The translations under genes were made by a program, and so were the position numbers. Positions 5,946-58,673 of a DNA stretch of 64,000 nt are shown in pieces (within the stretch, counting starts at the first letter, position 1; every line of letters starts with the position of its first letter). The notes under the pieces are model-generated. The model was not told the origin of the DNA, ran no database searches, and was given only the letters and a program-made list of their open reading frames with translations. Origin of the DNA: Selaginella moellendorffii (lineage: Eukaryota > Plantae > Lycopodiophyta); contig NW_003314279.1 of assembly GCF_000143415.4 (NCBI RefSeq), forward strand, positions 2,172,191 through 2,236,190, read 5' to 3'.

Positions 5946-6074
5946 CAATAATAAAATAACTCACAATGAAAACAAAATTCTGCTACTTTCTTTCCTTTTA
6001 ACTCCTTAACATAAGGCAGAGTCATTCACTTGGGGAAACGAAGCCATCGGCATGAGGATTGCCCCTGCTTAAAT

Positions 6075-7330: not shown

Positions 7331-7654
7331 GCTAGTATATAGATGTTAGTAGACTTTGATTATGAATATCTGGACTCACGCACAAATCAAACTCAAGAGA
7401 AACGGGCTTGCAGTTTCAAATCGCCCAACACGGTTGATAGGTTGAATCGAGTTGGTCCTCCAATTCTTTCATAAAAAGCCAGAAATTTGTGGTGCATAAC
7501 CAGAATTGTGTTCTCGTAGACATATAGGTTCCTCGGTACCAGGCCCTTCCTCCACAAATCCTTTAGTAGGATCCATCCTCAACAAGTAAGATTTTGAATT
7601 GTCTGCAGTTGCCACAAAGAAGGACTTTGCGGAAGCTCAGCTAAAGCTTAACGA

Positions 7655-36876: not shown

Positions 36877-39368
36877 GGCACTTTGCCGAGCGATCTCGAG
36901 AGTAAAAAAGAGAGAAAAGCGACGATCCGGAGATTTCAGCTCATCGGAGGAAAAGAGAGAAGCATTCCAGAGGAAGAGCGCATGGAGAATGGAGCTTTCT
37001 CTCTCGCGACCTAGCAAGAAAGTACACAGCGCCGTGGCGCAGCAAGAATGCGATGGGAAAGAAGGATGAATTAGGGGCGAGAAGGAGGAAATCAGGGTCT
37101 TCTTCTCGCCCCACAAGAAGAACAAGGAAATATACCTAAAATGCCAACACACATACACATTCCAAAACCCTGGATTCAAGGCGATTGAAAAGGCGGTCTC
37201 AAATCCGCAATCTCTTACCATTTGGGGATAGACGGCCGGATTGCTTGCCACCTCATTAACGGTGACGGGCTTGAAGTCTACATCCCCACCATGATTTTGT
37301 CATGATGCTGTGTAGAAGTATACAAGATAAGACAACAAATACTTTTCACGACGGCAAATATTTTCAGTTTTGATATTCTCAAGCCCGCCCGCCCACCGCG
37401 TCCAAAAATTTGCCGCGAAGTAACGACCATGGTAAAAATCTCTCCGGCATTTGCCCTAGAATACGGGGAGATTCGAACCTGCAACCGGGTAAAAGCCAAG
37501 GGAGTAAATTCGAGCTGTACGCTTGTAAGTATTTACAGGTATATAGGCCTGTGGTAATGTGTCGGTGACTTTGGAATATGCGCGAGGGATTTTTCATGGT
37601 TTGTCACTTTCAATTTTCCCTGCAAAAGTGAGAGAAGGAAAAAAAACTAACTGCTTGATACGATTGATGGCTGGCCTGGTTAATTCTAACATTTGTTTTT
37701 TAGGGGATCTCATCGTTCGCTCTCGTCCTCGTTATAAGGTTGTTTCAATGCACGAAAGAGTCCATTTCAATGCGGTGGTTAACCGCTGAGAGAGGGGTAA
37801 ATCATGGCTGCTTTTGGAGGATTAAAGATTAATCACGCAGCGTTTCAGTTTTGGTTTAGCCCCTAACCGCATTGAAGGGTCCGTAACCCTGGAGTTAATC
37901 CAGCATTTTGACCCGCATTTAAGATTCACCCCACGGGGGTGATTATCGAATTTCACCAGCCACGCCACGCCACCCACAGTAAAAAGACCAGAGTGTTTGA
38001 ACCGCGCGCCCCGCGGGAGCAAGTGTGGCGCGCGGTTGCTTTCGGCGCGCAGTTTCAAGTACACAAGGGCGAGAACCGTGCGGCGCTTGATAGCGCTGTG
38101 TATAGGGTGTGCGTGTCTGCTTGTGGCGGCATTTTTTTTAAACCGTTGCTGTTGTCCATCGCGTGCAACATGTGAGCCCTAAGAGAGACTTCGTCTTCGT
38201 CGTCTCGTCGCGTTCATAATCTTCCAATCTCGCAAAAGGAAAAGAAGCATTGTCACCTTCAAGGGAAAAAAACAAATGCTGTCGGCCAAAGTTGCGTTCC
38301 CCGACCTAGAATTTTAGGGTTTTACCGATTATGTGTGGCTCTCAAAGTCAATGTTGCATATGGACAAGAGAGATAAATATTAGCAAAATTATTTTCTCTA
38401 ATTTAGTTTCTTTTCAATCTCTAGGAAAGCTTTAGATCTTGATACGGCCCTACTCCTATAGTTTTCTAAGAAGCTTCTCCTTTGGTAAGAAGCTTTTTCC
38501 TTATTGCTTATGGCTAATACTATTGGCATTGGGTTTGATGTGTTAAACCGATGTTACATGGAAACGTCCATATGGCATCACTTTATTGGTTCTTATGTAT
38601 ATTTTTGTATATGAAGTTGAATATTCTCACAGATTCTTAAGAACTTGAAGGATATTCCTTAGAATCTAATGGGTATTATGGGTCATTATATGGGGACTAT
38701 AGCCATGTTACATGGACATCTATAACCATTCATCCATCCTAGCATACCTATTTTTTGTATTTGAAATGAAAATTTCTCAAATTCATTGACTTGCTTACTA
38801 TATTCCATAATTCAGTTGAAAAAACATTATGGCACCTCTTCTAATTCCAATCGATATAAGCTTTTTTCATTGTTCAAATTCAACAAAGACTGAAGAGCTT
38901 AGAGAGAGTGATTTCAGCTGTTAATAGTATGGCATTAGATGCTCATTGTAGAGTAATGCACAAAATTCTATGAAATTCTATTTAATATATTATTTATATA
39001 TTATTATACAATATACAATATAATATTATTATTTGGATTTCAAAATGCTTGGATATTTAGTTACTTCTATTGTTTGCAAGAATGTGCCAAAAAACAGGAG
39101 GATAGAAATTTGTCAAGATTAGAAGACAATTATACTATTACTAAATTATATAATCTTTGTCACAAATGTGACTACAAATATTAAGAATTACCTGTTAACA
39201 AGTATTTTTTGATATTGTTCTTTTACTACCACAATAGTAAGAAATTGAACCCTTTATCAATCCTTCTTGTTCAAGTATTACTAAACTAAATTTAGCATTT
39301 ATACTTGGCCAAATTAGCATAAAAGAGAATTCTTAAGTATTTTTTTAACCAAGTATATTTGGCCTAGT

Positions 39369-39742
39369 TGCTAATGACTAAATTTTCTATTTTACTTTAA
39401 TCACTTAACCACACTTTTAACCATTTAGAAGAGTCTCACTCACAATCTATATAAGTTCTATTCTCGACTTAGAAGCTTATTAACCTTGTGAATAACATTT
39501 ATGCTATTCAGCTTTTGCACTTAGTCCAAGTGCTCCACATGTTCAATCCCATAATCAACACCACAACTACTGATATATCAATCTATTAAGCTAAGGCCAT
39601 GTTCATTTACCTTTGTCTCACTAGTAATCTTAAACCACTTGTCCCAAAACCACACCTTAACATCTTTAATATGCCTAGAGATATAAGGAATAACTTTCCC
39701 CAATATCTCTTGTTAGTCCTCACCAAGTTCCTCTCCATCCAT
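39369..39742 (-). repeat. Older LTR of the 43-50 kb family, left half (split by the Mutator-like insertion)
   Basis: Collinear with 43259-43685 and 49006-49435. Stops at CTCCATCCAT and resumes at 57699. Confidence 0.8.
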
Positions 39743-41209
39743 AGGGGGATGGTCCAAAGTTGAGTTGAGTTTATGAGTTGAGTTTAATTCAACATAAGTC
39801 AACTTAAGTTAACATAGTCAACTAAAAGTTTTATAAAGGAAATCTAAATTGAAGAAATGAAGGTTCTAGTAAACTTTAAAATATTTAAATATGTAAATAT
39901 CTAAATTAAAAGTTTCTATAAGATTAAATTGTTTAAAAAAGACAAAGTTTACGAGAACCTATCTTTTATAAAGCTATATTATTTTATTATGACTATTGTT
40001 ACAGCTATTTTAATTTGACTACTTAATATTTTGAATACTTTTACAGCTGTATTTTGTAGTTTTTTAGGGTTCTTGAGAAGATGGGAAGCAAGGAAAATAT
40101 AAGATTTATGAGCAAGAGTTGTAGTGCAAAGGAATGTAAGAATGTTAATTTTGTTTCACTACCACAATCTTTATATTACACTCTTGGTCTTTATTACCTA
40201 TTTGGGAATGTGGAAACCATTATCATAATTGATAAAAATGCTTCTATTACTTCTGAAACAATGGTCTAGAGTAAGAGAAATAAAGAAATAAACAATATGG
40301 TGGAAAGCATAAAGAAATCTAATCAATAAAACTTTCCATGACATTTGTAATTTACATATTAATTCATATTAAAAACTCTGTTGCCTACCTATATTGCAAT
40401 CCTCTCATATGATAACACCAAGGTATATTTTTGCAATGAATCCTCATTAAATGTTTGAGAATAATAATAAAAGAAATTGAAATCTTTCGATAGACTCAAA
40501 TGTAATATCATATCAAAGAATCAACTTTATCTACATTTCCAAGATTGAAAGACAATCTCACACGAGAGAATGGTAGTGTGCCAATGTGCTCTGCCACTAT
40601 AATGTGGTTTATATTTCCTTGTAGTCTATTTCCCTAGACATTTAGCATGTGTAGAAAAAAAAATATGTGGAGTAAAGTAGGATTTCATCATAATGATAGA
40701 GCCTGTGTATACACGATAATCTAAAATTCTAGAAGCTCTTATGTTTACAAGCAAGCTATAATTATGAAACCCCATTTCCAAGACTAACATTTAAAGAATA
40801 TGAGTTTTATTAGTGTTATAATAAATAAACCTCATTCATGAGACTAAACTTAATATATAAACTATCTAGAAAAGTTATAGTCATTGTAGTTTTTTTGTTC
40901 TCCTTGAGTTCCTTGGAAGTTTGTATTGAAATGGCTCAAAGGAAAGTCACTACTACTCTTACTTGGCCCCTTAGCATTTCATATCAATCTCCATCTCCAT
41001 TCCTAAGTTCTACCAACATTCCATCTTCACCTCCACATAACAATCTTTTTTCTACTAAGGGCTCTAGTGAAGCTAAATTAAAGCTTCTTATATATAAAAT
41101 TCTGAATCTTGCTACTAGAGAGGGATTGCTTCCAATGCTTCAAGAGTAATACCATATGTTTTTGCAAGATTTTATTTCTAACATAACAAGATTACTTAAA
41201 AGCACATAA

Positions 41210-41476
41210 CACTATTACATTTGGTGTCCAATATGCTACTTTTTCTTGGACAAGACAAATGGCTCTATGGGTTTACAAAATTTTCTTAAGCACTATAGGA
41301 ATTGCCCAATGGCAGGTTTGGAAAATGTGCACGTGTGGATGTACAATAGATTTAAGAATGAGTTACAAACACATACCCATTATCGCTTCATGGTGAGGAA
41401 CAACATCCCCTTAGGAAACATTGCATTGGCTAGTGCAAAATATGTGGTTTTTAGGCCACCCTACAATGGAATGTAA
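41210..41476 (+). CDS. Small C2HC/BED-like zinc-finger ORF or exon inside the transposon
   Basis: IWCPICYFFLDKTNGSMGLQNFLKHYRNC (CxxC...HxxxC). Confidence 0.4.
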   Translation, partial: HYYIWCPICYFFLDKTNGSMGLQNFLKHYRNCPMAGLENVHVWMYNRFKNELQTHTHYRFMVRNNIPLGNIALASAKYVVFRPPYNGM

Positions 41477-41801
41477 GATCTAGAATTACTTTACTATAAT
41501 ATAGTATTGTCACTATTAAAAGAAAAAAATATAATAAAATGATATTAGTTATAGGTAACATACTTTGTTCTAGAAGGTGCTATCATATCACATACAATTG
41601 TTTAAAAAATGTTGAAGGAGGAGATGGCAACACACAAGCGCTACAAGGTGATGGTGTGGGTGAGAATGATAATTTGCAATTATGATATCTAACACTGACA
41701 CTGACATCTGACACTTTCACTAACATTGACACTTTCACTTACATCTGACACTTTTATTGATTTGATATATAACAAGCTTTTCATTTTATGTAAGGATGCA
41801 A

Positions 41802-43258
41802 TTAACTTTTTTCTGCCTCATCATCAACATATTGATTTCTTTTATGTCTCCTCCTATATTGGTATTGTGGGGAAGATTCACCTTGTATATGTTGAGCCAT
41901 AGCTTCTACATAGTTAAGGAGACTTCCAAAGCCTCAAATTCTAGAAACTCCAAGTGACTGTGATCTATAAAATAGAATTAAACATATATTGAAATTTTAA
42001 TAAACATAATTTACCTCTTTGAGGTTGAAGGCAACTCATGAAATCTTTTGAGCCGATGTTTGAAGAAATGATGTTCTTCAATAGCAAACACCGACCTACC
42101 AAAGTCACGTATTGCCTCCACCATAGAACTGCTATCTACTGTGCAATCAATCACAACACCATTTGATGGGTACGACAGTTTGAAATTAGTACCTTAGAAA
42201 CATGTTGCGGATCTTCTCATCCACAAAGTTAATGTTAATAGAACTGTCGTACCCAAGCAAAACATATGCTAAATGTTTGTTATCATGAAACCCATTATGT
42301 GTGTTTCTGCAGAAGGCATAATAGATCCACATCATAACCTAGAAAATAAAAATGTTTAGAAATTAGATAAAAATATAAAATGCATACTTGCCTTTTCAGG
42401 CTTCCCTTGGACACCCCTCGTATCGACACCAATAGGATCCATGATGCACCTCAAAAAGAATAACTTGAAATGAACTTTTGTTGCACATGTCATAAACTCA
42501 TACATTCAGTTGGGGTTGTTCGGTAGAATGAAGACAACATAACCAACTTCGAGCATAAATGCTTTGAACAAGAGGAATGCATTATGCACGTGGTTAGGTG
42601 TGAGAAAGTTCCAATCCTCAACTTTTCTATCGATATCTAAAAGACCATTTGGAAAGTTGAAGAGAATAAAGTCTGTAATTGGGAGCAAAGGCCTTTATAT
42701 ATCTTTTGGCACCAATGGTTGAACTAGTGCTGTATATCCATATTGATGTTATCTTCCATGAAAGATGTCAACAATCTACAGTAGGAACTAATGAAGATAC
42801 CCACAATGTCTCACTATGTTATTGGGGACACAAGATGGACCTATAAAAGAGCTAGGTGAATGAAAAAAGCAATAAATAATATACTACCGTCATATGGCAT
42901 GTTGTCGATGAGAGTTCCTCCAGCTCCTCTTCACGAGCATCTTGTCGAGCTGGAATGAAATTACTACCAACAATCATTGCTGCAAAAAGCATGTATTACC
43001 ACCTTTAGTTTGTAAAATTCACTTTTGTTTACCTTGAGGTCGACGTGATATTCTATAAACCACTTGATCATTGTTATTTATTGGTAGAACCTGATATAGA
43101 TCTTGGTTGTTTGATGGTTGAACTGGAGCTTGATCCTGGCTGTCTAGTGGTGGAACACGAGCTTGATCTGAAGCTTCCTCATCCTCGTCTCCATCATCAC
43201 TTGCATTGCCATCGTTGTTAGCATTGACAACTTCTTCGTGATCTAGTGTAAAGGTTTC
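41802..43258 (-). pseudogene. Decayed beta-class DNA amino-methyltransferase-like domain (3' part of transposon cargo gene)
   Basis: DFILFNFPNGL (motif IV-like), then MLEVGYVVFIL, then SYPSNGVVIDCTVDSSSMVEAIRDFGRSVFAIE (motif I-II-like). Contains introns, stops and a frameshift. Confidence 0.6.
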
Positions 43259-44332
43259 TATAAGTGACTAAATTTTCCATTCTACTTTAGTCACTTAACC
43301 ACACCTCTAACCACTTGGAGGAGTCTCATTCACAACCTCCTTAAGTCCAATTGAGGACTTGGGACCTGCTAGTCCTGAGAATGGCATCGATGCCACTCAT
43401 CCCTTGCACTTAGTCCAAGTGCTCCACGTGTCTAGTCCCAAGATTGACACCCAAAGGTACTATTGACATATCGGCCCGTTACACTAAGGCCATGCCCATT
43501 CACCTTTGTCGCACTGGTGGTCCAATACCACTTGCGTCACAATCCCGTCTCTCCAAGACTGGGGCATCCGTCCATGAGTGGTCATCCCCAATCCACTCCT
43601 TAGCATCCTTAGGATGCCCACAAACATGGGAATAGCCTTCCCCAACATCCCCTTGTCAGTTTCTGCCAAGTCCCTCTTCCATCCACGGCTATGTTCACCA
43701 ACACTGCCACTAGATCAAGGCCCGCAGGCTCAGCCACTAAGTCCCATTGTCCTTTAGGATTTCCTCTCCATGTGACCGTATCCATAGTTACTACACTAGA
43801 GGATTGCTCCTCCTCCTTTCCCCCATTTGGGACTTTGGGACAACATTTCGAAACACCGTGGCCCTACGCGAGCCCCATGGGTACTTTCCCCACCTTCTGC
43901 CTTTAGGTGCTCTAGCCATGGGCTTAGAGTGAGGTTCCGTTGAGCCACACCAGGTATCCAAGTAGGTAGTGCCACCCACACTTGGACTGTGAGCATCAGC
44001 CAGTCGATCTCCCGGGGGAACTAGAGCTGGCTCTTGAACATTTCACCAAGCTACCCTGCTTGTCGGTCCATGTTCACTCTAGTCTTGGACTTCCCAGTGG
44101 TCAGTTCATCACCCAACACTGGGTCTGGCCTTCCTGAGCCAAACTGGCCTTTCCTGGCCAAACTGGCTCCATTGCAATCCTCCCCATTACTATACTTTTG
44201 GAGCTCACCAAACTCCCCAGGGTCTGGGAGATGAACACTTTGGGCTTTCACCCTCTCAAACTCGAACTCGGACTCGGACTTGGACTCGGACCTAGACTCG
44301 GACTCGGACTCAAACTCGAACTCGGACTCGGA

Positions 44333-44364
<32 letters not shown>

Positions 44365-47300
44365 TGGTCTTGGCCTCGGCCTCGACCTCGGTCTCGGTCC
44401 CAGTCTCGGTCTCGGTCCTGGTCTCGGTTCCAGTCCCAGTCTCGGTCTTGACCTCGGACTCCATCTCGGATTCCATCTTAGGTCCATCTCAGACTCCATC
44501 TTGGACTCCGTCTAGGTCCATCTCGAACTCCATCTCGGACTCCATCTCGGGTCCATCTCAGACTCTATCTTGGACTCCATCTCGGTCTATCTCGAACTCC
44601 ATCTCGGGTCCATCTCGGACTCCATCTCAGGTCCATCTCGGACTCCATCTCGGACTACATCTCGGTCTATCTCGGACTCCATCTCAAGTCCATCTTGGAC
44701 TCCATCTCGGGTCCTTCTCGGACTCCATCTCGGACTCCATCTCAGTCCATCTCGGACTCCATCTCGGGTTCATCTTGGACTCCATCTCGGGTCCTTCTCG
44801 GACTCCATCTCGGACTCTATCTTGGTCCATCTCGAACTCCATCTCGGACTCCAACTCGGGTCCATCTTGGACACTTCCACGTATGATGTGTTGGTCCTTT
44901 TGGGTCCCTTTTTGGAGCCTCGCTTATTGCTCGCTTCATGCTCATTCCTTGAGCACTCTGTTAGGAGTTCCACTCCCGCTCTCGACCTTTCAAGTTGGAG
45001 CCTTTTAGTCCAAACGTGTTACGCTCGTTTGGCTTTTGCTTCGGCCACTACCACGTGGCACCCTTTCGGCTCCACTTTGGGGCCTAGGGATTTTGTGTCT
45101 CACAACTCCACCACCCATAGATGAAGTTCGATGTCCTCATCGAACGATAAACCGTTTTATAAAGTAACACTAGCATGTATTACCTTCACCATCCTTGGCA
45201 CTTAGCCAATATTCGTCAATGGTTTGACACCGAAGGCTCGCCATGCCTTGTCTAACCTCTAAGGAGCATAGTGTCTCTAACATAAAGACTCATTTGACCA
45301 CCTCAGGTGATTCTCTCCCTTTTATTGTGTTTGCTCTCGCTAAACCCATTAGAGACACTTTCTCTAGTTCAATCCCACTACTCATTCTTGAGTAGTCTCA
45401 ACTTCTATTGACATAACCAATTCACCTTGGAACTTTTAATTTTGACTTCTCAAAGTTAACTTCATTACACATATTATGCAACTTCACTTCCCCATCCTAG
45501 AAAGTTCTCCACTTGAGGGCACTATCATCCTCCTTTCTATTTTGTACCACCTTTGGCACCAAGTTTTAGCTATCGTAAGTTGTGCTAGAGTTGTCCACAG
45601 CCCTATCATTTGGCTACTTTGCCGCTCTCTTTCTTGGAGCTTTCACCTTTGCCAACTTAGAGCAATCAGGAATCCATCCTTGGAAGCACACTTCCTTTCT
45701 CACCATTTGTTAGCATCCACAACATTAGTGTTCCATGCCTAACTTTGCCATTTGCATTCCTTCCAATGAATTCCATGGCTCACACTTGGCCTCTAGTCTT
45801 TTGCTCTTATCCGTTGATTGTTGCACTGAGCAGCATAGGATCGCTACCTTCATTCTCGAGGTATCCTTTTGGTTCCATGGCAAAGGCTCTACTTTGCTAA
45901 GTCTAGAGGGTGCTCACCCTTAGTAGGTCTCTTTAGCATTTTCTGCTACGGGCTCCGTCCACAGCCCAACTTTGCGACCTTCCCATGAGTCTCTCCCAGA
46001 TATTACTTTCTTGGACTTACTACACCATCGTATTGGTACAATTGATTTCCCTTTTGGTGTCTTTCCCACTTGGTCACCTTGACCAAGTCACACCATTATC
46101 AATAGTTCCAATCAACACTTTGAATTAGGAATCATATTCCTTAACCCAAATAAAGACCTTGTCTTGGTTTAGCCATAAGATCACCTAGCGATCCCATCTT
46201 GACCCCTTAACAGGTCTACCAATAGGAACTAGGTCTTCCAGACCCTTTTAAATTGTTGACTATGACCCCGGAGGCATCCCCCACACTTGGCAGTGTGCCC
46301 AAACCAACCCTTCTATAGCAATTGAGACTGAGTGTTCCCATCTCATTCACCACGTCCTTGGTGCCCTTTACACCAAAGTGTTCAAGTTAGATATGCCAAA
46401 CTTTGGCTCTAAGCAATCTAACCGTGCATCACGACTCTGGAGCATCTCCTGCTTGGTGGTGTGCCTAAGCCAATCTTCTCACTGAGATTCCATGACCACC
46501 GAAATATGAGTGTCCTCATATTCCAAACCATCACCACACCCTAGTGATTTGGGATTCGAACCCAAGCACTAAAGGGTTAGAACTCGAACCCAACCTCCAT
46601 ATATGCATTTACGGACGGCATCACCCTAGATGCCTGGCATGACTCCCCACGTCGTTGCACTGATTTATATCCAAAGTGCGCTACGGATCATAACTTAGGA
46701 ACTTAATCCCTACAAATTGCCAAGTCCTCTCACTTGACAAGTCTATGATCATGCATGGACTCCTCTATGCTTGGCCCCATATGCCACCCCTTTTCAAGTT
46801 AGCACCTTCAACTAAGGGATTTGTTCCCCTGACTTGCCACTCTTGCTTAACAAATCATTCGACTACTAGAATATGGTTTCATGCATAAGTGTGAAAGTCC
46901 TTGACCATCAACTTTTGTTCAAAGTCATCCCTTTGAACACTCGGGAACTACTTCCCCAACCTTGATAGTATTGCCTTATGGCAAGTTTCAAGACCATGCT
47001 TTTTCTATACCACTTTGATTTCGTGCGTTTTATGAACCATTTACACTTGGCTTTCTAGGTACTACACTATTTAGAATTGTCTTTGGGAACCTTGAATGAA
47101 CTCTGTCCCTTAGCTTGCTAAAGCTTGTCCTTTCGCAAGTCTTCTAATTGCCATATAGTCTAACATGGACAATTTTATGCCTTAGACTCTCTATGGCACC
47201 ACGGTTACTAGTAACAACATGCTCAAGCACCCACTTGATTCTCCACTCTCAACTGACATAACCACCATTGGTTATGCTCTTTGATCTTAGGGATAAACCT

Positions 47301-50300
47301 ACCCGATAGCCTAGGGGGTGGTTCCTTAATTCGGGTATGCTCACCTTATAATCCCACACACCGAGATTAATGTTGCTACTTATAGACTTTTATATGCCCA
47401 TCACTAGCCTGGCCAAAATCCCATTTTTGGCTTTGTCCAATTCAAGTAGACAGACTTCTCCCGTCTCCGCAACCTTGGACATTTGGATAGCACCTTCTAT
47501 CCAGGGACTTAGTCCCTTAGGCCTTATCTATTGCCCTCATGACATCAAACACTAACTCTTGGTGTTCTAGAGCGTTTGGGTGTGCCAATGATGGCATCTT
47601 TGACAATGAGCATTCCCTTTACAATATTGACTTACTATATCGCAATATAAGCAATTCATTCTTTATAAGGGTATGTCTACCTTCTTTATCCCAATAAGAA
47701 GTCTTATGTAGTTACCTTTTATCAGTTTCATCAATTATTTTGCACCTTTTGCTTAGTTGCCTCATAATTGTCAAGTCCTACAACTCATTGCTGGTGCTTC
47801 CACACCTCCATCATTGTTTAGATCACCACACTCTACCACATGCATTCCAGCTTAGGCTATGCCATTCCCATTTCCATTGGGATTCTCTTGGCAAAAGGTT
47901 CTTATGAACCCACCAATATAACCTCAAGGTATCATACCTTAGCACATTTAGTGTCTCCACACCATCGGCTCCATGAGCTTACTTTTATGACACTTGCACT
48001 CGTGTCTAGGTCTTTTGCCAAGACCAACACAGTCGTTTCTTATGCCAACTATCTGTGAGCACTTCACTATAGTGTTCTCACACAACTCTACACTAAAGTT
48101 GCTTTCTTCCAGGAACACCTTTCCCATGACTTTAGTATGGCATATTCTGCCACCCATGAGATACCCATTGTTCTCATACTTAGATCTTATAATCTTCCCC
48201 ATCCTCTGTAAGGCATAACACACCTCAGTCCAAATGCTTCCATAAGTCCTTTAGGACCATTCTTTGACTCCACTCAAGTCATTCAGCCTATTAGACTTTT
48301 TTTAATCCCCCGACCTATAAAGTTTTACTTTTGAGGTGTTAGCTCATTAGAATACAACTTTTTGTATTCATGTCCTACTCACCAAGACCACCATTACAAG
48401 TGTTATTCTAACATTTGACTATTTTACGTTCTTTGTGGGCTACCTTTGCCTGTTAAAACTATTTATTCATATAATGAGAACATCGATTCATCCTCTAAGC
48501 ACACCCCAAACTCGTGGTCCAGCATTTATTCAAGGTAGCCCCAGCTACCATTTCAAGGACATATGTCCTTATCTATATTTGACTTCCTATGGTCATTAAT
48601 TCTGGTATCAAATTCATGAGCACCAACCTTAACTTCAAGAGGGTAATCTTGTGACTCCTTTATCGTTTTGGAGTCTCTATCTTCCCCGTGATCCCAACTA
48701 TAGTTGTTTATCACAACTACATTAGCCAGTTTACTGAGTCAAACACTCATCTAGATCACATCCTCAACTTAATGAGGAAAACCTTACATTATTCCCAAGA
48801 TCCCAAAATTGTTCCATTATTGGCCCTTTTTTATCCACCACCTCATCTACAAGTTAACCCCTAAATTGTAGTGGAGAGCTATGTTTTCCCGACATGCTAC
48901 TCCTCAAGGATAGGCCCACTCCTAGGACCTTCCGATGCCAACACTAGTGGTGATATACTTCAGCACTAATAAAAGTTGAACTAAGGAATAGCTCTGATAC
49001 CAAATTGTAAGTGACTAAATTTTCCATTTTACTTTAGTCACTTAAACACACCTCTACCCACTTGGAGGAGTCTCTTTCACAACGTCCTTTAGTCCAATTC
49101 AAGACTTGGGACTTGCTAGCCTCAAGAATGGCATCTATGCCACTCATCCTTTGCCCTTGGTCTAAGTGCTCCACGTGTCCAGTCCCAAATCCGACACCCC
49201 AAGGTACCACCAACATACCAACCCATTACGCTAAGGCCATGCTCCTTCACCTTGGTCACACTGGTGGTCCAACACCACCTGCATCACAGTCCCATCTCTC
49301 AATGATTGGGTTATCTATCCAAGAGTGAGCATCCAAGATCCACTCCTTAGCATCCTTAAGATGCCCCTAGACATGGAAAACTGCCTTTCCCAATATCCCT
49401 TTTACAGTCCTCACCAAGTCCCTTTTTTGTCCATGGCCAAGTTTGCCTACACTACCGTTGGGACAAGGCCCACAAGCACGACTACTAAGTCCCACTGTCC
49501 TCTAGGACTTTCTCACCACATGACCATATCCTTGGTCACCACACCAGAGGATTGCTTCTCTTCCATTCTCACCATGGCCTTACGCAAGCCTCATGGGTAC
49601 TCTTCCTGCTTTTTGCCTTTGGGTGCTCTAGCCATGGGCTTAGAGCGAGGTTCCATTGAGCCACACTAGGTATTCAAGTAGGTAGTGCCACCCACACTTG
49701 GACTGGGAGCATCGACCATTCGATCTCTCGGGAGAACTAGAGTTGGCTCTTGAACACTTCACCAAGCTACCCCGCTTGTCAATCTGTATTCACTTTAGCC
49801 TTGGACTTCCCAATGGTTATCCCATCACCCAACACCTAGGTACAGCCTTCCTGGGCCAAACTGGCCTTTCCTAGCCAAATTGGCTCCACTGGAGTCCTTC
49901 CCTTACTATAATTTTGGAGCTCACCAAACCCCCCAGGGTCTAGGAGACGAACACTTTGGGCTTTCACCCTCTCAGACTCAAACTCGGACTCAGACTTGGA
50001 CTCGGATTTGGATTTGGACTCGGACTCAGACTCGGACTCAGGCTTGGGCTCAATCTCGGCCTCGGCCTCGGTCTCAATCTCGGTCCTGGTCTCGGTCCCG
50101 GTCTTGGTCTTGGTCTCGACTTCGGACTCCATCTCGGGTCCTTCTCGGACTCCCCATCCCAGACTCCATCTCGGGTCCATCTCAGGTCCATCTCGGACTC
50201 TATCTCAGACTCCATCTTGGACTCCATCTCAGGTCTATCTCGGACTCTATCTCAGACTCCATCTCAGGTCCATCTTGGACTCCATCTTGGATTCCATCTC

Positions 50301-50509
50301 GGTCCATCTCGGATTCCATCTTGGACTCCATTTCAGTCCATCTCGGACTCCATCTCAGGTCCATCTCGGACTCCATCTCGTTCCATCTCGAACTCCTCAA
50401 GTTGGAGCTTTTAGTCCAAATGTGTTACGCTCGTTTGGCTTTCGCTTTGGCCACTACCACATGGCACCCTTTTGGCTCCACTTTGGGGCTTAGGGATTTG
50501 TGTCTCACA
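43259..50509 (-). mobile_element. LTR retrotransposon, non-autonomous or decayed; LTRs 43259-45104 and 49006-50509
   Basis: Paired LTRs T(G/A)TAAG...TCACA. tRNA-Met PBS (TGGTATCAGAGC on minus, 48991-49002) and a PPT-like tract at 45105-45118. The 3.9-kb interior has no intact ORF. Confidence 0.9.
44258..44872. repeat. Tandem 6-bp (CTCGGN) and 12-bp (CTCCATCTCGGA) arrays within the LTR
   Basis: Directly visible. A shorter version lies at 49972-50395. Confidence 0.95.
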
Positions 50510-51166
50510 CCTCCTCAAAGTAGGATCCTAGCTATTCACAATCTCAGGTGTGACGGTAACGATCTCCGTTGTTCCTGGCTTGCAAAAAGAGACTAGAAAC
50601 ATACTGATATTTGTCACAAGGCCATTCTGTTTGAACAAGTTGTATATGTCCAGGTTGACATAATTGGATGCTATGCGGACAAGGTTCATTTGCTACAAAC
50701 AGCAAAGGGGGATTTCTCTGATCAAGTTGCAAGGGCCTACCCACTTGTGTGCTTCAAGTGTTTGGTGAACTATTTTTTTCCTTGTCCGCATAACAGTCTC
50801 TTGGAAGCACTTGTCCACCACATTGTCAGGAAGGTCTGGAACTCTTTTAGCTCTAAGCTATTCCTCAAGTTCCCTATTGTGAACACCACTACATTGCCCA
50901 ACTTTAGGGATTTACATTGGTGGTGGGCTAGTGAGGAGTAAAGGTGGAGGTGGTAGTGGTGATGGTGGGGGTGGTGGTGGTGGCAGTGGGGGCAGAGGCA
51001 ATAGTGGCAGTGGTAGTAGCAATGGTGGCAGTGGTGGTGGTGGAAGTGGTGATGGTGGTGGTGGAGGTGGCGATAGTGGTGGTGGAGGTGGTGATGGTGG
51101 AAGTGATGGTGGTGGAGGCAATGGATCTCTAAGTAAATATGTTTTTGTTGATATACTAATGGACAT
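50510..51166 (-). pseudogene. 5' part of cargo gene: poly-Pro region plus ParB-like N-terminal segment
   Basis: One frame with internal stops: MSISIST...PPPP...EIPLCCL*QMNLVRIA...NLFKQNGLVTNISMFLVSFCKPGTTEIVTVTPEIVNS*DPTLR. Cut by the LTR. Confidence 0.5.
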
Positions 51167-51329
51167 GTCAATTGTGATGTTGTTGTTAGTGCCAAATTGA
51201 ATTTCTTGTGTCTTCTTGGCTTCAACAACTTCTTTATGTTTTCCTTTTCTACAAAAGAAAAAATTTTATTAGTCAAACTAAATAAAGATAATAAGAAATT
51301 CAAATAGTCAAAGAGAAAAAAAAAATCAA

Positions 51330-51665
51330 GTGGGCCCAAACTCCACCTCAGGCACTTTAGGGGCTGGAGGGGCCAAGGTTATTTGAATAATGTTGGCCCC
51401 TTGGACAGCCAAAGTGCCCGAGGTGGCTAGCCCAAGCTCGACCTTAGGCACTTTGGCTGCCCATAGTGGCCAGCTTGGGCTCGACCTCGGGCATTTTGGC
51501 TTCCCGAGGGCCAAGGTTATTTAAATAACCTCGGCCTCTCGGGTGGCCAAAGTTCCCAAGGTGGCCGGCCTAGGCTCGACCTCGGGCACTTTGGCCACCC
51601 AAGAAGCCTAGGTTATTTAAATAACCTCAACCCCTCAGGCGGCCAAAGTGCCCAAGGTGGCTAGC
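51330..51665. repeat. Tandem array of ~90-bp GC-rich inverted repeats centred on AGGTTATTTAAATAACCT
   Basis: Perfect 18-bp palindromes at 51514-51531 and 51610-51627 and a degenerate one near 51376. Arms CCTCGGGCACTTTGGCC / GGCCAAAGTGCCC(G/A)AGG. Confidence 0.9.
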
Positions 51666-53091
51666 TCTAAAGAAGCAATCAAAAAAGAAGCAAGAAGAAA
51701 AAAACTAGAAGTGGAAGCAATCAAATTGAAATTCACCCTTGGTGGCATCTTTCCTTCCCGATCTCTCGATTGTGTTGGATTTCTCACACTCTCTCACTCT
51801 CTCTCTCAATCTCAACTCACGTTCACACTGGCATGCTCCATCTCCTGCACTCTCCCACACTTGATCTCTCCCACTTGCGCACTCAATCTTTTGCACTTGT
51901 GCACTCCACACTCAATCTCTTGATCTCTTGCAACTCATGGTGTGAAAAGTAACCTAATCTTAGTGGCTACCCTAACCCTAATCTTGATGGCTGCCCTAAC
52001 CCTAACCAATCTCTCATCCTGGCCGTTCATTTCGAATAACCTAAATCTCAACCATCACAATATATTCAATCTTATTTTATCTTATCATTATTATTATATG
52101 TGAATTATGGTTCTTTATTTTGTATATTTTAATGATGATATAACTAGCACCTATCAACATTTCTGTTATTAGAGATATGATATTATTTTTTACAAATTAT
52201 CTAGAAAGGATGCATTCTCATCAATATTTTGTACATATTTTGGAATTGTTACAAGAACTTTAAAGATTATAAATAAGACATGTTAAAATATGTTGTACTA
52301 TATCCATCTATGAATGGATGAATCCTTATCCAGAAATTTATTTTATGTTGTATTAGATTCTAAAAAATAGGCATGTGCTTTAAATGTCATTGAGCAGTGT
52401 TCATAATTATGGATAAAACTTGAGTTGTACTACGAATCAATTCTATCATTGAAGAATAAGATTTGATAATATTTATTATCATCTACCACTTAAAATTTGA
52501 CAACTTGATATATCACATGTACTGATAGTCAGATTGGATCTTTTGGTTTGACACACTATAGCAAAATGCCATTACTGGTATCATTATTAACTATTAAACT
52601 TCACGTGCTGAAAGTCTTTCCTTGGATCTATGTGTATACATGCATCAGGCATCATAATAAATGACAATAATATTAATATTGTCACACTTGCACATGTTAA
52701 ATTTGCTATAAAATTTAAATTCATTTTGTACATTGTTGATATTCTTCTTATTGCTCTATTTAAATTTCAATTATATTTCACTATAGAGTTTTACAAGCAG
52801 CATAAAGAGAGAGAACTCCAAAACTTATTGAGAAGGATAGAGAGGTTTCTTTTTCATTTTCAAGATCACCCACCTCTTTCATTCTCTCAGAGTATTGTTT
52901 CTGAAAGTTTTTTATGTCGGCGTTTTGATCTTCGTCTTAGCTCTATTTCTTTAGAGGTTGTGATTCGCAATGACACCAGTATAGTTGCATACTCAGAGTT
53001 TCTTTTTTTTGGTGTGGGCGAGGGTGGACAACAACAAGATTTACAAAATTCCAATTCAAAGGAGATTCAAGTTTTTGGATCTCCAATCAAA

Positions 53092-56000
53092 ATGCCAAAA
53101 TGCGCTCCAGCCAAAGTGAATGTGAAGCAAGAGTCAGTCGTTATCCTCTTGTCCTCTTCTAGTTCAAGTGAAGAAGTCATGCTAGTGTTGGTGCCAAATT
53201 CACCAGCACCAGCTCCAACTTCAGTAATATTCAAAGCCATTAGCAATGCTTTTCAATATAAGTAGCCAAAGGGAATGACTCTAGAGACGATCCATAGGGG
53301 TTCAAATATAGAGGGAAATGGCTCATGAAAAAAAGTGCACCCCCTTTTCCAATCGGTTAAGGGTCTTGGGATACTTGGGGTTAAGTGTCTTTGGGTTTGA
53401 ATTGTACTAGGCTGGGTGACCTCCCGGGAAATCCAAAAACTCAAGAGCTTACATTCAGTTTTCGTGCCTCTCAATCGACGTGCACTTATTTTTGTATAGG
53501 TTTGTGAGCAAGCTTCCATCCTCCTATAACAGTAACACTTTCTTCGAGTTACCACCTTTTGTCAGTAGCATAGGTTCTAAATAGAAGGGGATGGAAACCA
53601 AGCAAGATGTCCACAATTAGTGCAAGATCAATACCACACATTTCCAACATTTTGAAGGCACAATGTCTATAGTTCATTATGGCAGGCATTTAGATTGCTT
53701 GGATAAAGCATGCAATTGAGACTGTTGTAGAAATTCTATATTTTTCGAAGGGTCTGTAGTCAATCCTCCAGCCTATAACACCATTATTGTTGGATTCAAG
53801 TGTCAGTTTTACAAAAATGCTCCTCTATGTCATGCTATCTGGAAGGCCAAGATGTACTACTTTCTTCCACGGGATGGAGTGGTTGGAAGAGCTATAGTGC
53901 ATGTTAGCACATATATACATCCAATGCAGGAAGGGATACAAAGAAGTTCTCTTAACCATTTTCAAATATGCTATGCAGGAAGAGACCATGAGAAACTCAT
54001 TTGCAACTCTGAAACATGTTCAGAAGACTGTCCTCAAGGATTTTATCATAAACACTTTACTCAACTATACAAGGCTAATTTGTAGGACTTACTACAAGGA
54101 GTACAACCTACTACTAGCCTAAGGAGGTACATCCATTATATTTCATACATTATAATAATATCTTTTTCTTACATTATATTGTTTAAGATAAAATCTTGGA
54201 TGTGTGAATCTCGAGAGGGGAAGTTGCAATAAAAAATTAACTCCATCCTTGAATTGAAATGGACCTATCCATACAAGTTCATCCACGGAAGTTTGTTTCC
54301 AGACCAAGTTGTGAATGAGCAAGAGTGCCCCTTCATTTTCAAAATGTCTACTATGGGCCTTGCCTTTGGTGTAGATTTTGTCTCCTGAATGGACATGTTT
54401 GGGTCTAATGACTTTGCAAATACATAGGTACATTTTGACCATATAGAGTGCATATCGGGTTGGACAACATGAGAGCTCATGTGTATGATTCAAGGTAATT
54501 TTTATTCTTATTATATTGAAATTGTTGTAATATTTGTGTTTTCACAAGCTACATTGTAAATTAACAATTGCGATAGTAGAGTTTAAAGTACAAGACCAGA
54601 CAACCCAAAAAATATTTTGGAAGTCCCTTTCCGATATTGTCCTAAAGTAGACTGGTAAGCCTACAAACTTTTTTGGTTTCATGGTAAATGGGGCTGGTGC
54701 AAATTGGAATGGTGTCCGAGTAGTTTTTGGGAATGGTCAGCCATTGGAAGGTCATGAGAAGACTTGTGAGTTCCATTGGGCTTAAAGTCTAAACCAGTAC
54801 TACCACCTTATTAAGCCAGAGTTTCAATCAATGTTTAAGGAGTTGTGCAAACAATGGCAGGTTGCACATTTTGAAGAAAAGTATGAGGCAAAAGCAAACA
54901 AGATCCAAATGTGGTGGCATGAAGATGGCCATACACATGTAAGCTGCCTATCACAACTTGAGTCATGGTTAGGGTGGTGGGAAGTTAGGATGTTCCAGTG
55001 GGGACATCACTCTTTTCAAGTTGGTTTCTATTTTTTCTTCTCATTTTATTACCTCTTAATATTGCCTTTTCCATTAGGATCAACCACTTGAGGACCTCAC
55101 ATACACCCTAATTGTGAATCTTTTTGAAAGTAAGCACTAGAGTTGGCATTCCTCTGAGGCAAGGAAAGGGAAGATAAGTCTATATGAAGCTTATCTATCA
55201 AATTTGGTACACATTATAGAGCAATCTTCAAAAGCATTGGCATTTAAGGAAGGAAGATATATAGAAATAGGGCTTTTTGTTGAAATGTTACATGATAGGA
55301 TGAAGAGAAAATTAACTCCACCTGCCCGAACAGTGGCAACTGCAGTTGAAGAAGTGGTCCGTGGCACATCTATAGAGTACACTCCCCAGGCTTCTATTGG
55401 TGATATGAAGATTGTTCGCTCAAAGCATCATTTTCCCTTTGCTGGTGAAGATGTTGGTACGGACCTTGGAGCGAAAAGCTCTCACAAGCCTGATGTTGAG
55501 TACCATTTTGCTCCAAGACACCACTCTTGGACTGAGCCACCTCAAGTGGCTGATGAAGAGAGTGCATCACAACAGGTTGAAATTGCTTACCGTAGTGTGG
55601 AGCTGAAGCAATAGGCAAATCTGATACATGCTAGCAAAATCGAATGTAAGGTGTGTGGGGATGCTTCTAAGCTTAGATTCGTGGTGACAAATCTGCTTTT
55701 GTTCCAACCCCATGTTTCTATGGGGAACAAAAGCAAGCAAGATTTTCGAGATGGTGTTGGCTGTATTGTTGCAACACCAACACCAACCATACAAAGTGGC
55801 TTGAAGACACTATAGTGACTAAACCTGATGTAGTATCTAAAGAATGGCCGGTTGCTAATGGGCCAGTTGCTCACCTCGGATGAAATTGAAAACCTTGAGA
55901 AATTTGGTTTCAATCTTGAGAGGAGAGTTGGAAACATGAGTGATAGAACTAGGACTATTCCTATAGAGATGTATAGGAGGCTAGCATGAAAAGGTAAGGT

Positions 56001-56344
56001 AGTTAAATTTATTGGTACCATCTCCAAGCAGAAGCAAGGTAAAATAAAATTCACTCAAACACTTTAAGTATGCGATTCTCTCCACGAAGTACATCATTGT
56101 GCTTGCAAAGGAGTACATAGTCAAAACAGAAGGTGGAGAGTACACAATTGCCATTCAAGATTTTCCTTCTTGCACATGTCCAGACGTTACAGAGCACAAG
56201 GAATATGGGAAGGCATATACTCCTTGCAAACATATGTACTATATTTTCATCAATATTTTGCACCAATATCCTAAAGTGGATATTCATATACACCAAACAA
56301 GCTTTACTATTGCTAAGTTGCAGAAAACTTTTGGAGCTAATTAA
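53092..56344 (+). pseudogene. Decayed Mutator-like DDE transposase with C-terminal SWIM zinc finger
   Basis: HFDH (first D), GFMVNGAGANWNGVRVVFG (second D decayed), TCEFHW (CxxH), NLFESKH (E) and SWIM CTCPD...CKHMYY. Contains introns and stops. Confidence 0.8.
53257..53453 (+). mobile_element. Cassandra-type TRIM solo LTR containing 5S rRNA-like sequence
   Basis: GTTAAGTGTCTTTGGG...GTACTAGGCTGGGTGACCTCCCGGGAAATCC resembles the 5S A/C box region. TSD TTCAA/TTCAG. Confidence 0.85.
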
Positions 56345-56569
56345 ATTTCTCTAACACTATTAATGTTTATTCTCTATCAATAATATAAACTTATTATACT
56401 TTATATAATTAATAAAAAAGTGTTTTTTCATTTTATATGCTTCCAAGTGTTCTTTTCGCAATACTGCCTATAGTACTTGTGTGTTTCCATTTCTGTCTTT
56501 ACCATCTCAAAAAAGATTTTATGGTAGCCTTTCGAGTGCGTGATATTGCAATGTGTTGTGAGAATATAT

Positions 56570-56826
56570 TGTAAGCAACCAAAGGGAATGACTCGAGAGA
56601 CGATCCATTGGGGTTCAAATATAGAGGGAAAGGGCCCATGAACAAGAGTGCACCCCTTTTTCCAATCGGTTAAGGGTTTTAGGATATTTGGAATTAAGCG
56701 TCTTTGGGTTTGAATAGTACTGGGCTGGGTGACTTCCTGGGAAGTCCAAACTCAAGAGGTTACATTTGGTATCAGAGGGGTCTCGAGTCCAACTCTGTTG
56801 GTTGGCTAAGGGAATCACACCACATG
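56570..56826 (+). mobile_element. Cassandra-type TRIM 5' LTR + PBS, truncated
   Basis: LTR TGTAAG...TTACA at 56570-56764 with a 5S-like core. PBS TGGTATCAGAG at 56767-56777. Confidence 0.85.
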
Positions 56827-57698
56827 AAGTCCAAAATCAGGAGCTTACATATATATACCATCATACTAATCATCACCATTGTTTCCGATAGAAAACATAC
56901 GATAGACAATAGAAAATATATAGGGCATTTTTTGAAAGTGGCAGAATTGCACTTTTCTAAAATAAGTAAGAGGGCATTCTTTTCCACCCAATTTTTTGCA
57001 CCCTCTATCATTGTATTTATTTTCAACTCATAATCACTATCCTCACCATCTTCTCTTTCATTCTCTTATGTGGTTTGGTTATGTTGTGCAATATTTTACA
57101 TCTCCTAGCCCTTGAACCCTGGGAAGAAAGATTTTGAGAGTTGGAATTACCAACACTAGAACCCATAGACATTTGTGTGTATTTGCCTTTTTTCGAATGA
57201 GAGTGTGAATGAAAATTTATAAATTCTAGATAGTATATTATGATAAACCTCTCAAGAATGTATTCTAAAAAAGAACCAAGTCTTTCTTTTATATGCAATA
57301 AGCTTATATCAATGGTTATTTTTTTTCTTTTCAAATAGTTATATGGCTTTACATAGAATCTTATTTCAAATTTAATAAATTTTTAATTCTGATAAACCTA
57401 ACATTTATTAGCCAAAAAGCATAAAGTACAGATTTAAAGAAGTGACAAGAATACTTTTGCTGTAAACATCTTATTTTGTATTCTAACAACATCCCTATTA
57501 TGGCATGTAGTAAATACTTAAATTGTTAGAACAAGAAGTATCCTTTAGAACATTTTTTATTTATATAATATGTAAAGAGTTATGAAATTATTAAGTTCTC
57601 TATAACCTTAATATTTAAAAGTTTTTTAATATTTATATTAAACTACAATTAAAACTTCAGCTCAACTTTTCAACTCGTGAGCTCAAGTATAGTCCACA

Positions 57699-57958
57699 CT
57701 CCATCCATGGTCATGTTTGCCAACACTGTCACTAAGTTGGGGCTTGAAGGCCCAACCACTACTTTCTATTGATCTCTAGGACTTCCTTGCTGCATGATTG
57801 TATCTTTGGTCATTACACAAGAGGATTGCTTCTCTTTCTTTCCACAATCTAAGACTTTAAAACAACATTTCAAAACACTATGGCCTTACTCTCCCCACCT
57901 TCCGCCCTTAGGTGCTTTAGCGATATGGCTAGAATAAGGTTCTAATGAGCCATGCTAG
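57699..57958 (-). repeat. Continuation of the split LTR (right part)
   Basis: Collinear with 43676-43952. Confidence 0.8.
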
Positions 57959-58465
57959 TGTAATCTCTTGAATTTAGACTTCTTGAGAAGTCACTTAGCC
58001 TAGTACTATTCAAACCTAAGAACACTTAATGCCAAGTATCCTAAGACCTTTAACCAATTAGAAAACGGGGTGCACTCTTGTTCATAAGCCATTTCCCTTT
58101 ATATTTAAATCCTTATTGATTTGCTCTCAAATTGTTCCTTTTAGTTGCTTATAATCCACTATGCTTCCCTGCAAGTTCACACCCTCGTGAATGAAAGCTA
58201 AGAGTCGTAGCTTTTCCGAGAGCCCCACTATCTTGACACGTACTCAAACTAGACTTACTAGATATCAATTAACATGTGGTGTAATTCCCCTAAGCTAACT
58301 AACAGAGTTGGACCCAAGACCTCTCTAATACCAAATGTAAGCTCTTAAATTTAGACTTCCCAGGAGGTCACTCATCCTAGTACTATTCAAACCCAAAGAT
58401 GTTTAACCCCAATTATCCCAAGACCCTTAACTGATTGGAAAAACAAGTGCATTTTTATTCATAGA
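57959..58465 (-). mobile_element. Cassandra-type TRIM, nearly complete
   Basis: LTR 57959-58153, ~180-bp interior with a PBS near 58323-58333, and a second LTR from 58336 that is cut by a Copia-family LTR. Confidence 0.85.
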
Positions 58466-58673
58466 TATAGCACACGTGGTTTTTACCCTTTATCCTATAG
58501 TGATTTACCATAGGATAACACCACGAAGCGGAACCTAAACCCTCTTTGTGCCATGTGATAGATGCCACGTGTCACATGCCACATATCCATAGGACAGTGG
58601 TGTGGAACCCGAGGTTCAAGGCCTTGGGCCACTGAACGAAGGAACAGTGCCAAACTCCCAAGCATGGAGCCAA
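58466..58673 (-). repeat. Copia-family LTR fragment interrupted by an element of its own family
   Basis: Near-identical to 58674-58882. Confidence 0.75.

What the first reader, a model, noticed from the sequence alone, without database searches (positions are those of the whole stretch)
42010..42780. Catalytic motifs of the MTase-like domain can be restored mostly by reversing C>T/G>A transitions
Motif IV-like NFPN (AAC TTT CCA AAT, 42647-42658) is four changes from DPPY, three of them G>A or C>T. Motif I-like IDCTVDSSS (~42126-42152) becomes IDCTAGSGS by three such transitions. It is followed by EAIRDFGRSVFAIE, resembling the AAxxLGRxFIGIE pattern. The IV-before-I order is the beta-class permutation. 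This suggests an active ancestral enzyme eroded by host 5mC deamination; the reconstruction is inference.
Basis: partly seen in the sequence, partly recalled or inferred. Interest (0 to 1): 0.8.

Follow-up and report, generated by a model that had tools for sequence, protein, structure and literature searches.

The report
Clubmoss transposon methylase with altered site
This is a broken copy of a many-copy gene, likely transposon cargo, in clubmoss-like plant DNA; it resembles a bacterial DNA methylase, but its sister copies lack the usual catalytic aromatic residue too, so the family likely binds DNA rather than methylating it.

Summary
The domain is real, but the proposed catalytic restoration is wrong. 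The stretch (minus strand) is a spliced, broken copy of a many-copy gene. Its only true database relative is an intact Selaginella moellendorffii protein, a beta-class amino-methyltransferase-like domain behind a ParB-like N-terminus. That N-terminus lies at 50510-50803, cut off by an LTR retroelement. A palindrome array and a Mutator-like transposase remnant lie upstream.

Sister copies decide the question. Motif IV was D-F-P-D, not DPPY: two G>A reversals are seen, with no Pro-Pro and no Tyr. The distant intact relative reads D-M-P-D. The aromatic residue was therefore lost long before this copy decayed, and the odd motif was kept, which points to a pseudo-enzyme or a retargeted enzyme. The motif cannot tell 6mA from 4mC.

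ParB-methylase transposon cargo is published for algae (PMC12477816), and this scan noted it before in other plant genomes (e.g. e1-10602347). What is new here is the defined non-canonical motif IV in a clubmoss family.

The parts
42647..42658 (-). Motif IV position. N-F-P-N in this copy; D-F-P-D/N in sister copies; D-M-P-D in the intact relative
   Evidence: best-scoring window for a phage motif IV block, but weak alone (304 of 2,000 shuffles reach it)
42125..42151 (-). Motif I (SAM-binding), IDCTVDSSS; Gly at 42135 in sister copies
42015..42172 (-). Exon part with motifs I and II (…AIE); best match to beta-class MTases
   Evidence: hmmsearch E 1.1e-5 among 3 proteins; profile-profile 95.7%, 43 columns
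42168..42254 (.). 13-bp inverted repeat (42168-42180 / 42242-42254). In this copy a short inverted duplicate replaces a segment that sister copies keep (AMQVLLELYC-like, as in P0003) and shifts the frame
   Evidence: sequence; loose ends and 71-base skip, which I translated by hand
42181..42338 (-).
   Evidence: 47% identity to P0003 506-548, E 4e-10
42339..42391 (-). Predicted 53-base intron; GC donor here, GT in all laid sister contigs that cover it
   Evidence: 42390 G>A in about 100% of depth; flanks join in frame with P0003
42392..42840 (-). Exon with motif III-like (42792-42781) and motif IV; 2-base insertion near 42697-42700; premature stops
   Evidence: 33% identity to the relative over 96 aa; the part upstream of 42700 gives no BLAST alignment
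41965..42014 (-). Predicted 50-base intron (GT…AG) after the MTase domain
   Evidence: sequence only
42841..42887 (-). Predicted 47-base intron (GT…AG)
   Evidence: sequence only
43259..50509 (-). LTR retroelement splitting the gene (LTRs about 43259-45104 and 49007-50509, 82% alike; tRNA-Met-type primer site and purine tract). Flanks do not form a clean target duplication, and roughly 250 codons of the gene's middle have no counterpart
   Evidence: primer-site label recalled
50510..50803 (-). N-terminal part of the same gene, matching the ParB-like N-terminus of model P0005; the DGNHR box itself is missing from the window
   Evidence: tblastn 38%, E 5e-11; ParB-like label of P0005 is weak: PHROG E 0.044, DGQHR E 0.022, Atlas DUF3723 0.96
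51333..51665 (.). Array of inverted repeats with an 18-bp palindrome (two perfect copies, one with 3 mismatches), in the gene's predicted first intron (acceptor near 51250); candidate binding sites
   Evidence: 3 matches, 0.03 expected, 0 of 100 shuffles reach 3 (the pattern came from the site)
52612..56250 (+). Decayed, spliced Mutator-like transposase remnant, facing away from the ParB-MTase gene; a solo LTR at about 53258-53450 interrupts it
   Evidence: C-x-x-H after a candidate second Asp and a C-terminal SWIM-like finger (motif knowledge recalled); SWIM E 0.073, below cut-off; no Pfam or NCBIfam transposase hit

Best explanation
The stretch is a broken copy of a many-copy gene for a ParB-like plus beta-class DNA amino-methyltransferase-like protein, likely the cargo of a Mutator-type DNA transposon; its family motif IV is D-F-P-D rather than DPPY, so the intact protein likely no longer methylated DNA efficiently and would instead bind the element's own palindrome array to keep it active. 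Shown: homology, exon layout, many copies, family letters at motifs IV and I, C>T/G>A decay, and the LTR insertion. Inferred: membership of one transposon with the neighbouring transposase remnant, loss of catalysis, binding of the ParB-like part to the palindromes, and an anti-silencing role. Order of events (inferred): a phage-type DPPY enzyme was acquired; the aromatic residue was replaced by Asp before this family and the intact relative diverged, and the SAM-binding motifs were kept; the family spread; this copy then decayed.
For: The only real hit among 1.84 billion representatives is P0003, S. moellendorffii XP_024519109.1, E 2.5e-14 (the second hit is a repeat artefact). P0003's C-terminal domain: Atlas 0.96 to N6_N4_Mtase clusters, PHROG DNA methyltransferase E 3.5e-5, motifs III, IV, I in beta order. 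950, 928 and 533 contigs lay on 1 kb in three runs of one sample. Motif IV: Asp1 in 73-74% of depth (21, 22, 15 contigs), Asp4 in 25-36% (10, 15, 11 contigs), and no row for Pro2 or Tyr4 at the 8% threshold among 45, 49 and 39 contigs laid. The partner C of the same CHG site is also decaying (42651, 10-18%), which points to G as the ancestral base at 42649. P0003, only 27-33% identical, has D-M-P-D-G. 67 of 68 phage beta-MTases fetched have DPPY and one has DVPY. The aromatic residue stacks on the target base (PMC7544214, passages), a Tyr>Gly mutant is inactive (PMC3036652, section 37), and eroded motifs mark the non-catalytic METTL14 and MTA9 (PMC7544214). Published precedent for the layout: Ectocarpus Sola1-1_Ec32, ParB + N4/N6 MTase on the strand opposite the transposase (PMC12477816); inverted-repeat arrays beside ParB cargo genes in Bostrychia (10.1101/2025.02.11.637652, section 8).
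Against: No activity or binding was measured. Asp1, Pro3 and the SAM-binding motifs are kept in two lineages about 30% identical, which also fits a working enzyme with unusual chemistry. Family letters come from one sample and only from copies at least 80% alike, so a more distant DPPY subfamily would be missed. The motif IV register is weak alone (191 of 2,000 shuffles of P0003 reach it), and profile-profile alignment covers only motifs I-II. The transposase has no significant family hit and no element ends were found. That the palindromes and transposase travel with the gene in other copies was not tested. The ParB label rests on sub-threshold hits to P0005.
Confidence: 0.55

Rival explanations
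1. The same gene encodes an active but atypical DNA amino-methyltransferase. D-x-P-D still supports methyl transfer, with the stacking role supplied by another residue, and the element marks its own DNA with 6mA or 4mC.
For: Catalytic Asp1, Pro3, motif I glycines, motif II Glu and (in P0003) motif III Gly-Asp are kept across about 30% identity. Self-marking is the proposal for the algal elements (PMC12477816).
Against: None of 68 phage relatives lacks the Tyr, though these are one narrow clade. Tyr mutants lose activity (PMC3036652). P0003 has RYRSP where these phage enzymes usually have HPTEKP.
Confidence: 0.2
2. The acidic D-x-P-D site has been retargeted: the domain still uses SAM but acts on a basic substrate such as a histone or other protein Lys/Arg, or reads a modified base.
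For: SAM-binding motifs are kept while the base-stacking residue became acidic in both lineages. Amino-MTase folds are known to act on protein amino groups (PMC7544214, passage on HemK). The rest is inference.
Against: No direct evidence. The model is low-confidence in the substrate-binding middle (pLDDT under 50 over most of residues 119-194).
Confidence: 0.1
3. The gene is passenger cargo or a selfish unit with no function for the element, and the shared D-x-P-D is only inherited.
For: This copy is dead, and selection across copies was not measured here.
Against: Motifs are kept at about 30% overall identity, introns are kept, an intact open frame exists (P0003), and a palindrome array sits in the predicted first intron as in other elements.
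Confidence: 0.08
4. One reading: this family's ancestor was an active DPPY-type enzyme whose catalytic motif was eroded by host 5mC deamination.
For: Motif I is restored by such reversals, and decay is mainly C>T/G>A. A deeper prokaryotic ancestor very likely had DPPY.
Against: No Pro2 or Tyr4 among sister copies at 8%. The intact relative has D-M-P-D. DPPY needs 4 changes including a transversion against 2 for D-F-P-D, and such closeness is expected by chance.
Confidence: 0.07

Closest known systems
Sola1-1_Ec32 accessory gene of Ectocarpus (PMC12477816; passages and reference entries read; it cites Iyer et al. 2011, PMID 21507349, not seen, for green algae)
   Same: ParB-like domain fused to an N4/N6 DNA methyltransferase domain, on the strand opposite a DNA transposase; proposed to bind its own element
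   Different: Here a land plant, a Mutator-like rather than Sola transposase, and motif IV is D-x-P-D; the passages read do not give the algal motif
Plavaka accessory genes PAG2 and PAG3 of Bostrychia (10.1101/2025.02.11.637652; section 8 and passages read)
   Same: Transposon cargo with a PF01555 methylase and a ParB-like protein; inverted-repeat arrays beside the ParB gene; homologues reported on Mutator elements of Chondrus
   Different: There ParB is fused to a 2OG oxygenase and the methylase to SET, as two genes; here ParB-like and methylase-like parts are one gene
Phage ParB-fold + N6_N4_Mtase fusions and beta-class MTases (10.1101/2025.10.10.680097, passages; M.BceJIV, M.MboIIA, CcrM structures)
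   Same: Domain pair, motif order IV-TRD-I, glycine-rich motif I
   Different: Intron-containing, eukaryotic, multi-copy; lacks the motif IV aromatic residue
Pseudo-methyltransferases METTL14 (EPPL), MTA9 (NALW) (PMC7544214, passages) and DIRS1 MTase domains called likely inactive (PMC4738411, passages)
   Same: Amino-MTase fold kept with an eroded motif IV
   Different: Different clades; no active partner is known here. A 2026 preprint finds the DAM pocket of retrotransposons conserved (10.64898/2026.05.21.726589, passages), so the DIRS comparison is contested
MpDN4MT1 of Marchantia (10.1101/2021.02.12.428880) and N4CMT of bdelloids (PMC8885841); passages read
   Same: Prokaryote-derived beta-class amino-MTases in eukaryotes
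   Different: Those are active host genes with SPPY; this is a repeat family without that motif
VANDAL/VANC anti-silencing system (PMC5735166; abstract read)
   Same: Transposon cargo protein acting on tandem motifs in its own non-coding DNA (functional analogy)
   Different: No homology was tested or seen; anti-silencing here is only inferred

Membership tests
Beta-class amino-MTase fold (PF01555-like) | Motif order IV - TRD - I | tested here: met
   III at 360, IV at 411-421, I at 580-588 of P0003; same order in the window. Motif IV register is weak alone
Beta-class amino-MTase fold (PF01555-like) | Glycine-rich SAM-binding motif I followed by acidic motif II | tested here: met
   DATAGCGS…AIE in P0003; Gly at 42135 in sister copies; 42138 and 42130 were not among the 40 of 280 rows shown
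Beta-class amino-MTase fold (PF01555-like) | Pfam gathering score | tested here: not met
   P0003 13.8 bits against 26.7; window translation no hit
Beta-class amino-MTase fold (PF01555-like) | Structure matches beta-class enzymes | tested here: inconclusive
   Top 11 chains are beta-class MTases, best Z 11.9, rmsd 3.5, 166 aligned (also 104), but the model (pLDDT 62) was built on an alignment of beta-class phage enzymes, so this is circular; the single-sequence model failed (pLDDT 38)
Catalytically canonical N4C/N6A DNA MTase | Motif IV (D/N/S)-P-P-(Y/F/W) with an aromatic fourth residue | tested here: not met
   D-F-P-D/N in sister copies; D-M-P-D in P0003
Catalytically canonical N4C/N6A DNA MTase | Methyl transfer to DNA | not testable with these tools
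   needs an assay
ParB-MTase transposon accessory genes | ParB-like N-terminal domain in the same gene | tested here: inconclusive
   Window matches P0005 36-134; P0005 has VDGNHR and sub-threshold ParB/DGQHR hits; that box is deleted from the window
ParB-MTase transposon accessory genes | Inverted-repeat array beside or in the gene | tested here: met
   51333-51665
ParB-MTase transposon accessory genes | Many dispersed copies | tested here: met
   533-950 contigs laid per run; a count of contigs, not a copy number
Mutator-like element | DDE transposase with CxxH and SWIM finger | tested here: inconclusive
   Motifs seen by eye; SWIM E 0.073; no MULE hit
Mutator-like element | Terminal inverted repeats and a target-site duplication of about 9 bp (recalled) | tested here: inconclusive
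   No convincing pair between 37501-43258 and 50510-64000 (best E 0.065)

The most novel reading that the evidence does not exclude
A clubmoss transposon lineage turned a phage-type DNA amino-methyltransferase into a protein with a conserved acidic D-x-P-D site. Guided by its ParB-like clamp to palindromes in its own intron, it reads or shields bases, or methylates a non-DNA chromatin target, to block silencing, and the intact gene LOC9661604 is a still-working or domesticated member that can be assayed directly.
Probability: 0.3. Interest if true: 0.7.

Novelty: new variant of a known kind. Interest (0 to 1): 0.42.

Why it matters
It corrects a tempting reconstruction. Reversing C>T/G>A changes recovers the SAM-binding motif but invents the catalytic one, so expressing a DPPY version would test an enzyme this family did not have. 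The real motif, D-x-P-D in two lineages about 30% identical, suggests that ParB-methylase cargo genes split into canonical and non-canonical forms. An intact natural copy (XP_024519109.1) and a defined 18-bp palindrome make the open question, whether such transposons bind and modify themselves to escape plant silencing, testable without any reconstruction.

Tried and rejected
No whole genome is held for this window, so paralogues came only from run contigs. Pfam, PHROGs, NCBIfam and PDB sequence searches with the window translation gave no MTase hit. A word-based homologue search with it found none among 77 candidates. Searches with the relative's two halves found only the two gene models of one locus (proteins outside about 345-1,140 aa were not searched). 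No close relatives were found in prokaryote genomes or metagenomes. P0004 was rejected as a repeat artefact. Phage and plasmid tblastn hits are weak (best E 0.02-0.04), mostly over motifs I-II. No RNA holder was listed, which says nothing on expression. The single-sequence fold was unusable. The window's KPE before the intron looked like motif X, but the relative does not share it, so I rejected that reading. The first 130 bases of the exon give no BLAST alignment to P0003. A context test of decay was uninformative: 27 CHH, 4 CHG and 3 CG of 34, close to availability (319, 38, 38), but the best-supported rows are biased against CG and CHG sites; 5mC as the cause therefore rests on the two symmetric sites in motif IV and on general knowledge. 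Slips: one piece was in the wrong frame (redone in 77; a second piece in 77 was also off-frame), one row was in the wrong frame (alignment dropped), and the count 328 is an artefact of the N run (true count 2). Paper searches showed no description of this family in Selaginella, and the supplement of PMC4738411 does not list locus 404703 (2 of 8 Selaginella mentions seen). Iyer et al. 2011 and bioRxiv supplements could not be seen and may mention it.

Full report
Setting. The window is plant DNA: ordinary genes up to about 38 kb, then AT-rich, CpG-poor repeats (CpG observed/expected 0.92 in 5-38 kb, 0.26 in 39-43.2 kb). No assembly was available.

Observation. On the minus strand N-F-P-N lies at 42658-42647 and IDCTVDSSS at 42151-42125, followed by EAIRDFGRSVFAIE. 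The first is not beyond chance, since 24 of 9,676 12-mers nearby are as close to DPPY, about 0.6 per reading frame of this length. D-F-P-D needs only two changes, both G>A.

What the gene is. The read-through frame has no Pfam or PDB hit. Among 1.84 billion representatives it hits two proteins. One is a repeat artefact. The other, P0003 (XP_024519109.1, LOC9661604, 627 aa, open frame), aligns at 29% over 216 columns. Its C-terminal domain resembles N6_N4_Mtase clusters in the ESM Atlas (0.96, 196 of 256 features; the family is carried by 39-60% of members of the top three clusters), a phage DNA methyltransferase family (E 3.5e-5) and PF01555 below cut-off. A profile of 68 phage beta-class enzymes finds the motif I-II region in both P0003 and the window (profile-profile 95.7% over 43 columns). 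The best windows for motif III and IV blocks in P0003 are FTVLIGDYMKLL and VDFVFFDMPDG, in the right order, but each is weak alone (80 and 191 of 2,000 shuffles). A model built with phage homologues matches beta-class structures (best Z 11.9, rmsd 3.5, 166 aligned), which is circular. A second gene model of the same locus, P0005, adds an N-terminus with a VDGNHR box and weak ParB-type hits. The window holds the start of that N-terminus at 50803-50510 (38%, E 5e-11), ending where an LTR retroelement begins (43259-50509; LTRs 82% alike). The flanks of that element do not match, and the gene's middle, including the DGNHR box, has no counterpart in the window.

Exon layout. The gene is spliced. 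An intron at 42391-42339 joins the motif IV exon to an exon in another frame that is 47% identical to P0003; its donor is GC here and GT in the sister contigs. Further predicted introns lie at 42887-42841 and 42014-41965. This copy also has a 2-base insertion near 42697-42700, premature stops, and a 13-bp inverted duplicate at 42168-42180 in place of a segment that other copies keep (loose ends translated by hand).

The family test. Four runs were laid, at most two samples; 7, 950, 928 and 533 contigs lay on 1 kb. Of the 40 difference rows shown (of 280), 34 are a T or A here against C or G in the family, and 230 of 256 differing places in run X2 are transitions. At motif I, 42135 is Gly-coding in 82-91% of depth in the three deep runs. 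The other two predicted places (42138, 42130) were not among the rows shown, but P0003 has Ala, Gly, Gly at the three places. At motif IV (45, 49 and 39 contigs; 8% threshold) the first residue is Asp in 73-74% of depth and the fourth is Asp in 25-36%, Asn otherwise. There is no row at 42655 or 42654, so Phe stays, and no row gives Tyr. The first codon is part of a CG site and the fourth of a CHG site, and the partner cytosines of both are also decaying (42659, 13-15%; 42651, 10-18%). That fits 5mC deamination and makes G the ancestral base at 42649. The family motif was thus D-F-P-D-G, and the distant P0003 has D-M-P-D-G. Family letters also bring the copy to P0003's residue at 42628 (Gly) and 42508 (stop to Trp), though not at every place. 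Limits: one sample gives nearly all the data, depth is not copy number, and copies under 80% alike were not seen.

Meaning. Canonical motif IV is (D/N/S)-P-P-(Y/F/W), and the last residue stacks on the target base; METTL14 and MTA9 have eroded motifs and are the non-catalytic subunits (PMC7544214, passages). A Tyr>Gly change inactivates HP0593 (PMC3036652, section 37), and SPPY>APPA inactivates N4CMT (PMC8885841, passages). All 68 phage relatives fetched keep the Tyr (67 DPPY, 1 DVPY; one narrow clade). Sharing D-x-P-D at about 30% identity means the aromatic residue was lost before the two lineages split and the site was then kept. Deamination explains the ruin of this copy, not the loss of the canonical motif.

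Context. Upstream of the gene, in its predicted first intron, lies an array of inverted repeats with an 18-bp palindrome (3 matches, 0.03 expected). Beyond it, facing away, is a decayed transposase-like frame with a CxxH and a SWIM-like finger, Mutator-like by recalled motifs but with no significant library hit. Element ends were not found. I looked for the palindromes after earlier notes of this scan described them in other genomes.

Mechanism. Most likely (0.55) the intact protein bound the element's palindromes through its ParB-like part and used a SAM-binding but catalytically impaired methylase fold to hold or shield DNA against silencing, in the manner of VANC (PMC5735166, abstract). Binding, loss of catalysis and anti-silencing are all inferred.

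Known and new. ParB + N4/N6 methylase cargo opposite a transposase is published for Ectocarpus, with similar proteins cited for green and red algae (PMC12477816, passages). Red algal Plavaka elements carry related cargo and inverted-repeat arrays (10.1101/2025.02.11.637652, section 8), and phage ParB-N6N4 fusions are common (10.1101/2025.10.10.680097, passages). Seven paper searches and one supplement showed no account of the Selaginella family; Iyer et al. 2011 and bioRxiv supplements were not seen. This scan's notes report the system in other plant genomes (162 findings held my search words, 8 shown), some as likely inactive and Mutator-borne; these notes are unchecked. Also read, passages only: PMC4738411, 10.1101/2021.02.12.428880 and 10.64898/2026.05.21.726589.

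Verdict. This is a real feature and a new variant of a known kind. Interest 0.42.

Noticed in passing
window 43259-50509: LTR element of about 7.2 kb with long LTRs that contain 6- and 12-bp satellite tracts; the internal region shows no ORF of 100 aa or more. A truncated third LTR piece lies at about 39375-39800 and a fourth at about 57700-57950.
   Followed up: partly
window 53258-53450, 56571-56768, 57959-58462: Several copies of a roughly 200-bp LTR; the one at 56571 is followed by a tRNA-Met-type primer site, suggesting a small non-autonomous (TRIM-like) element.
   Followed up: no
window 50910-51130 (minus strand): Proline-rich low-complexity coding stretch just before the ParB-like N-terminus; absent from model P0005.
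   Followed up: no
P0003 / P0005 (LOC9661604, SELMODRAFT_404703): Two gene models of one S. moellendorffii locus; neither holds both the ParB-like start and the full MTase domain, so the fusion is hidden in annotation. An intact, possibly domesticated member.
   Followed up: partly
P0005 30-300: ESM Atlas neighbours are fungal DUF3723 proteins (0.96); DUF3723 is, from memory, a cargo gene of Starship elements, hinting that it is ParB-like too.
   Followed up: no
window 5115-8380: Long degenerate inverted duplication (arms 77-96% complementary) around an F-box-like region.
   Followed up: no
window 318-2867: Nearly intact Ty3/Gypsy pol (RT, RNase H, integrase by eye) with an 81-bp tandem duplication at 1875-2037.
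   Followed up: no
window 58465-64000: Further LTR-like and decayed pol-like sequence on the minus strand, running off the window.
   Followed up: no
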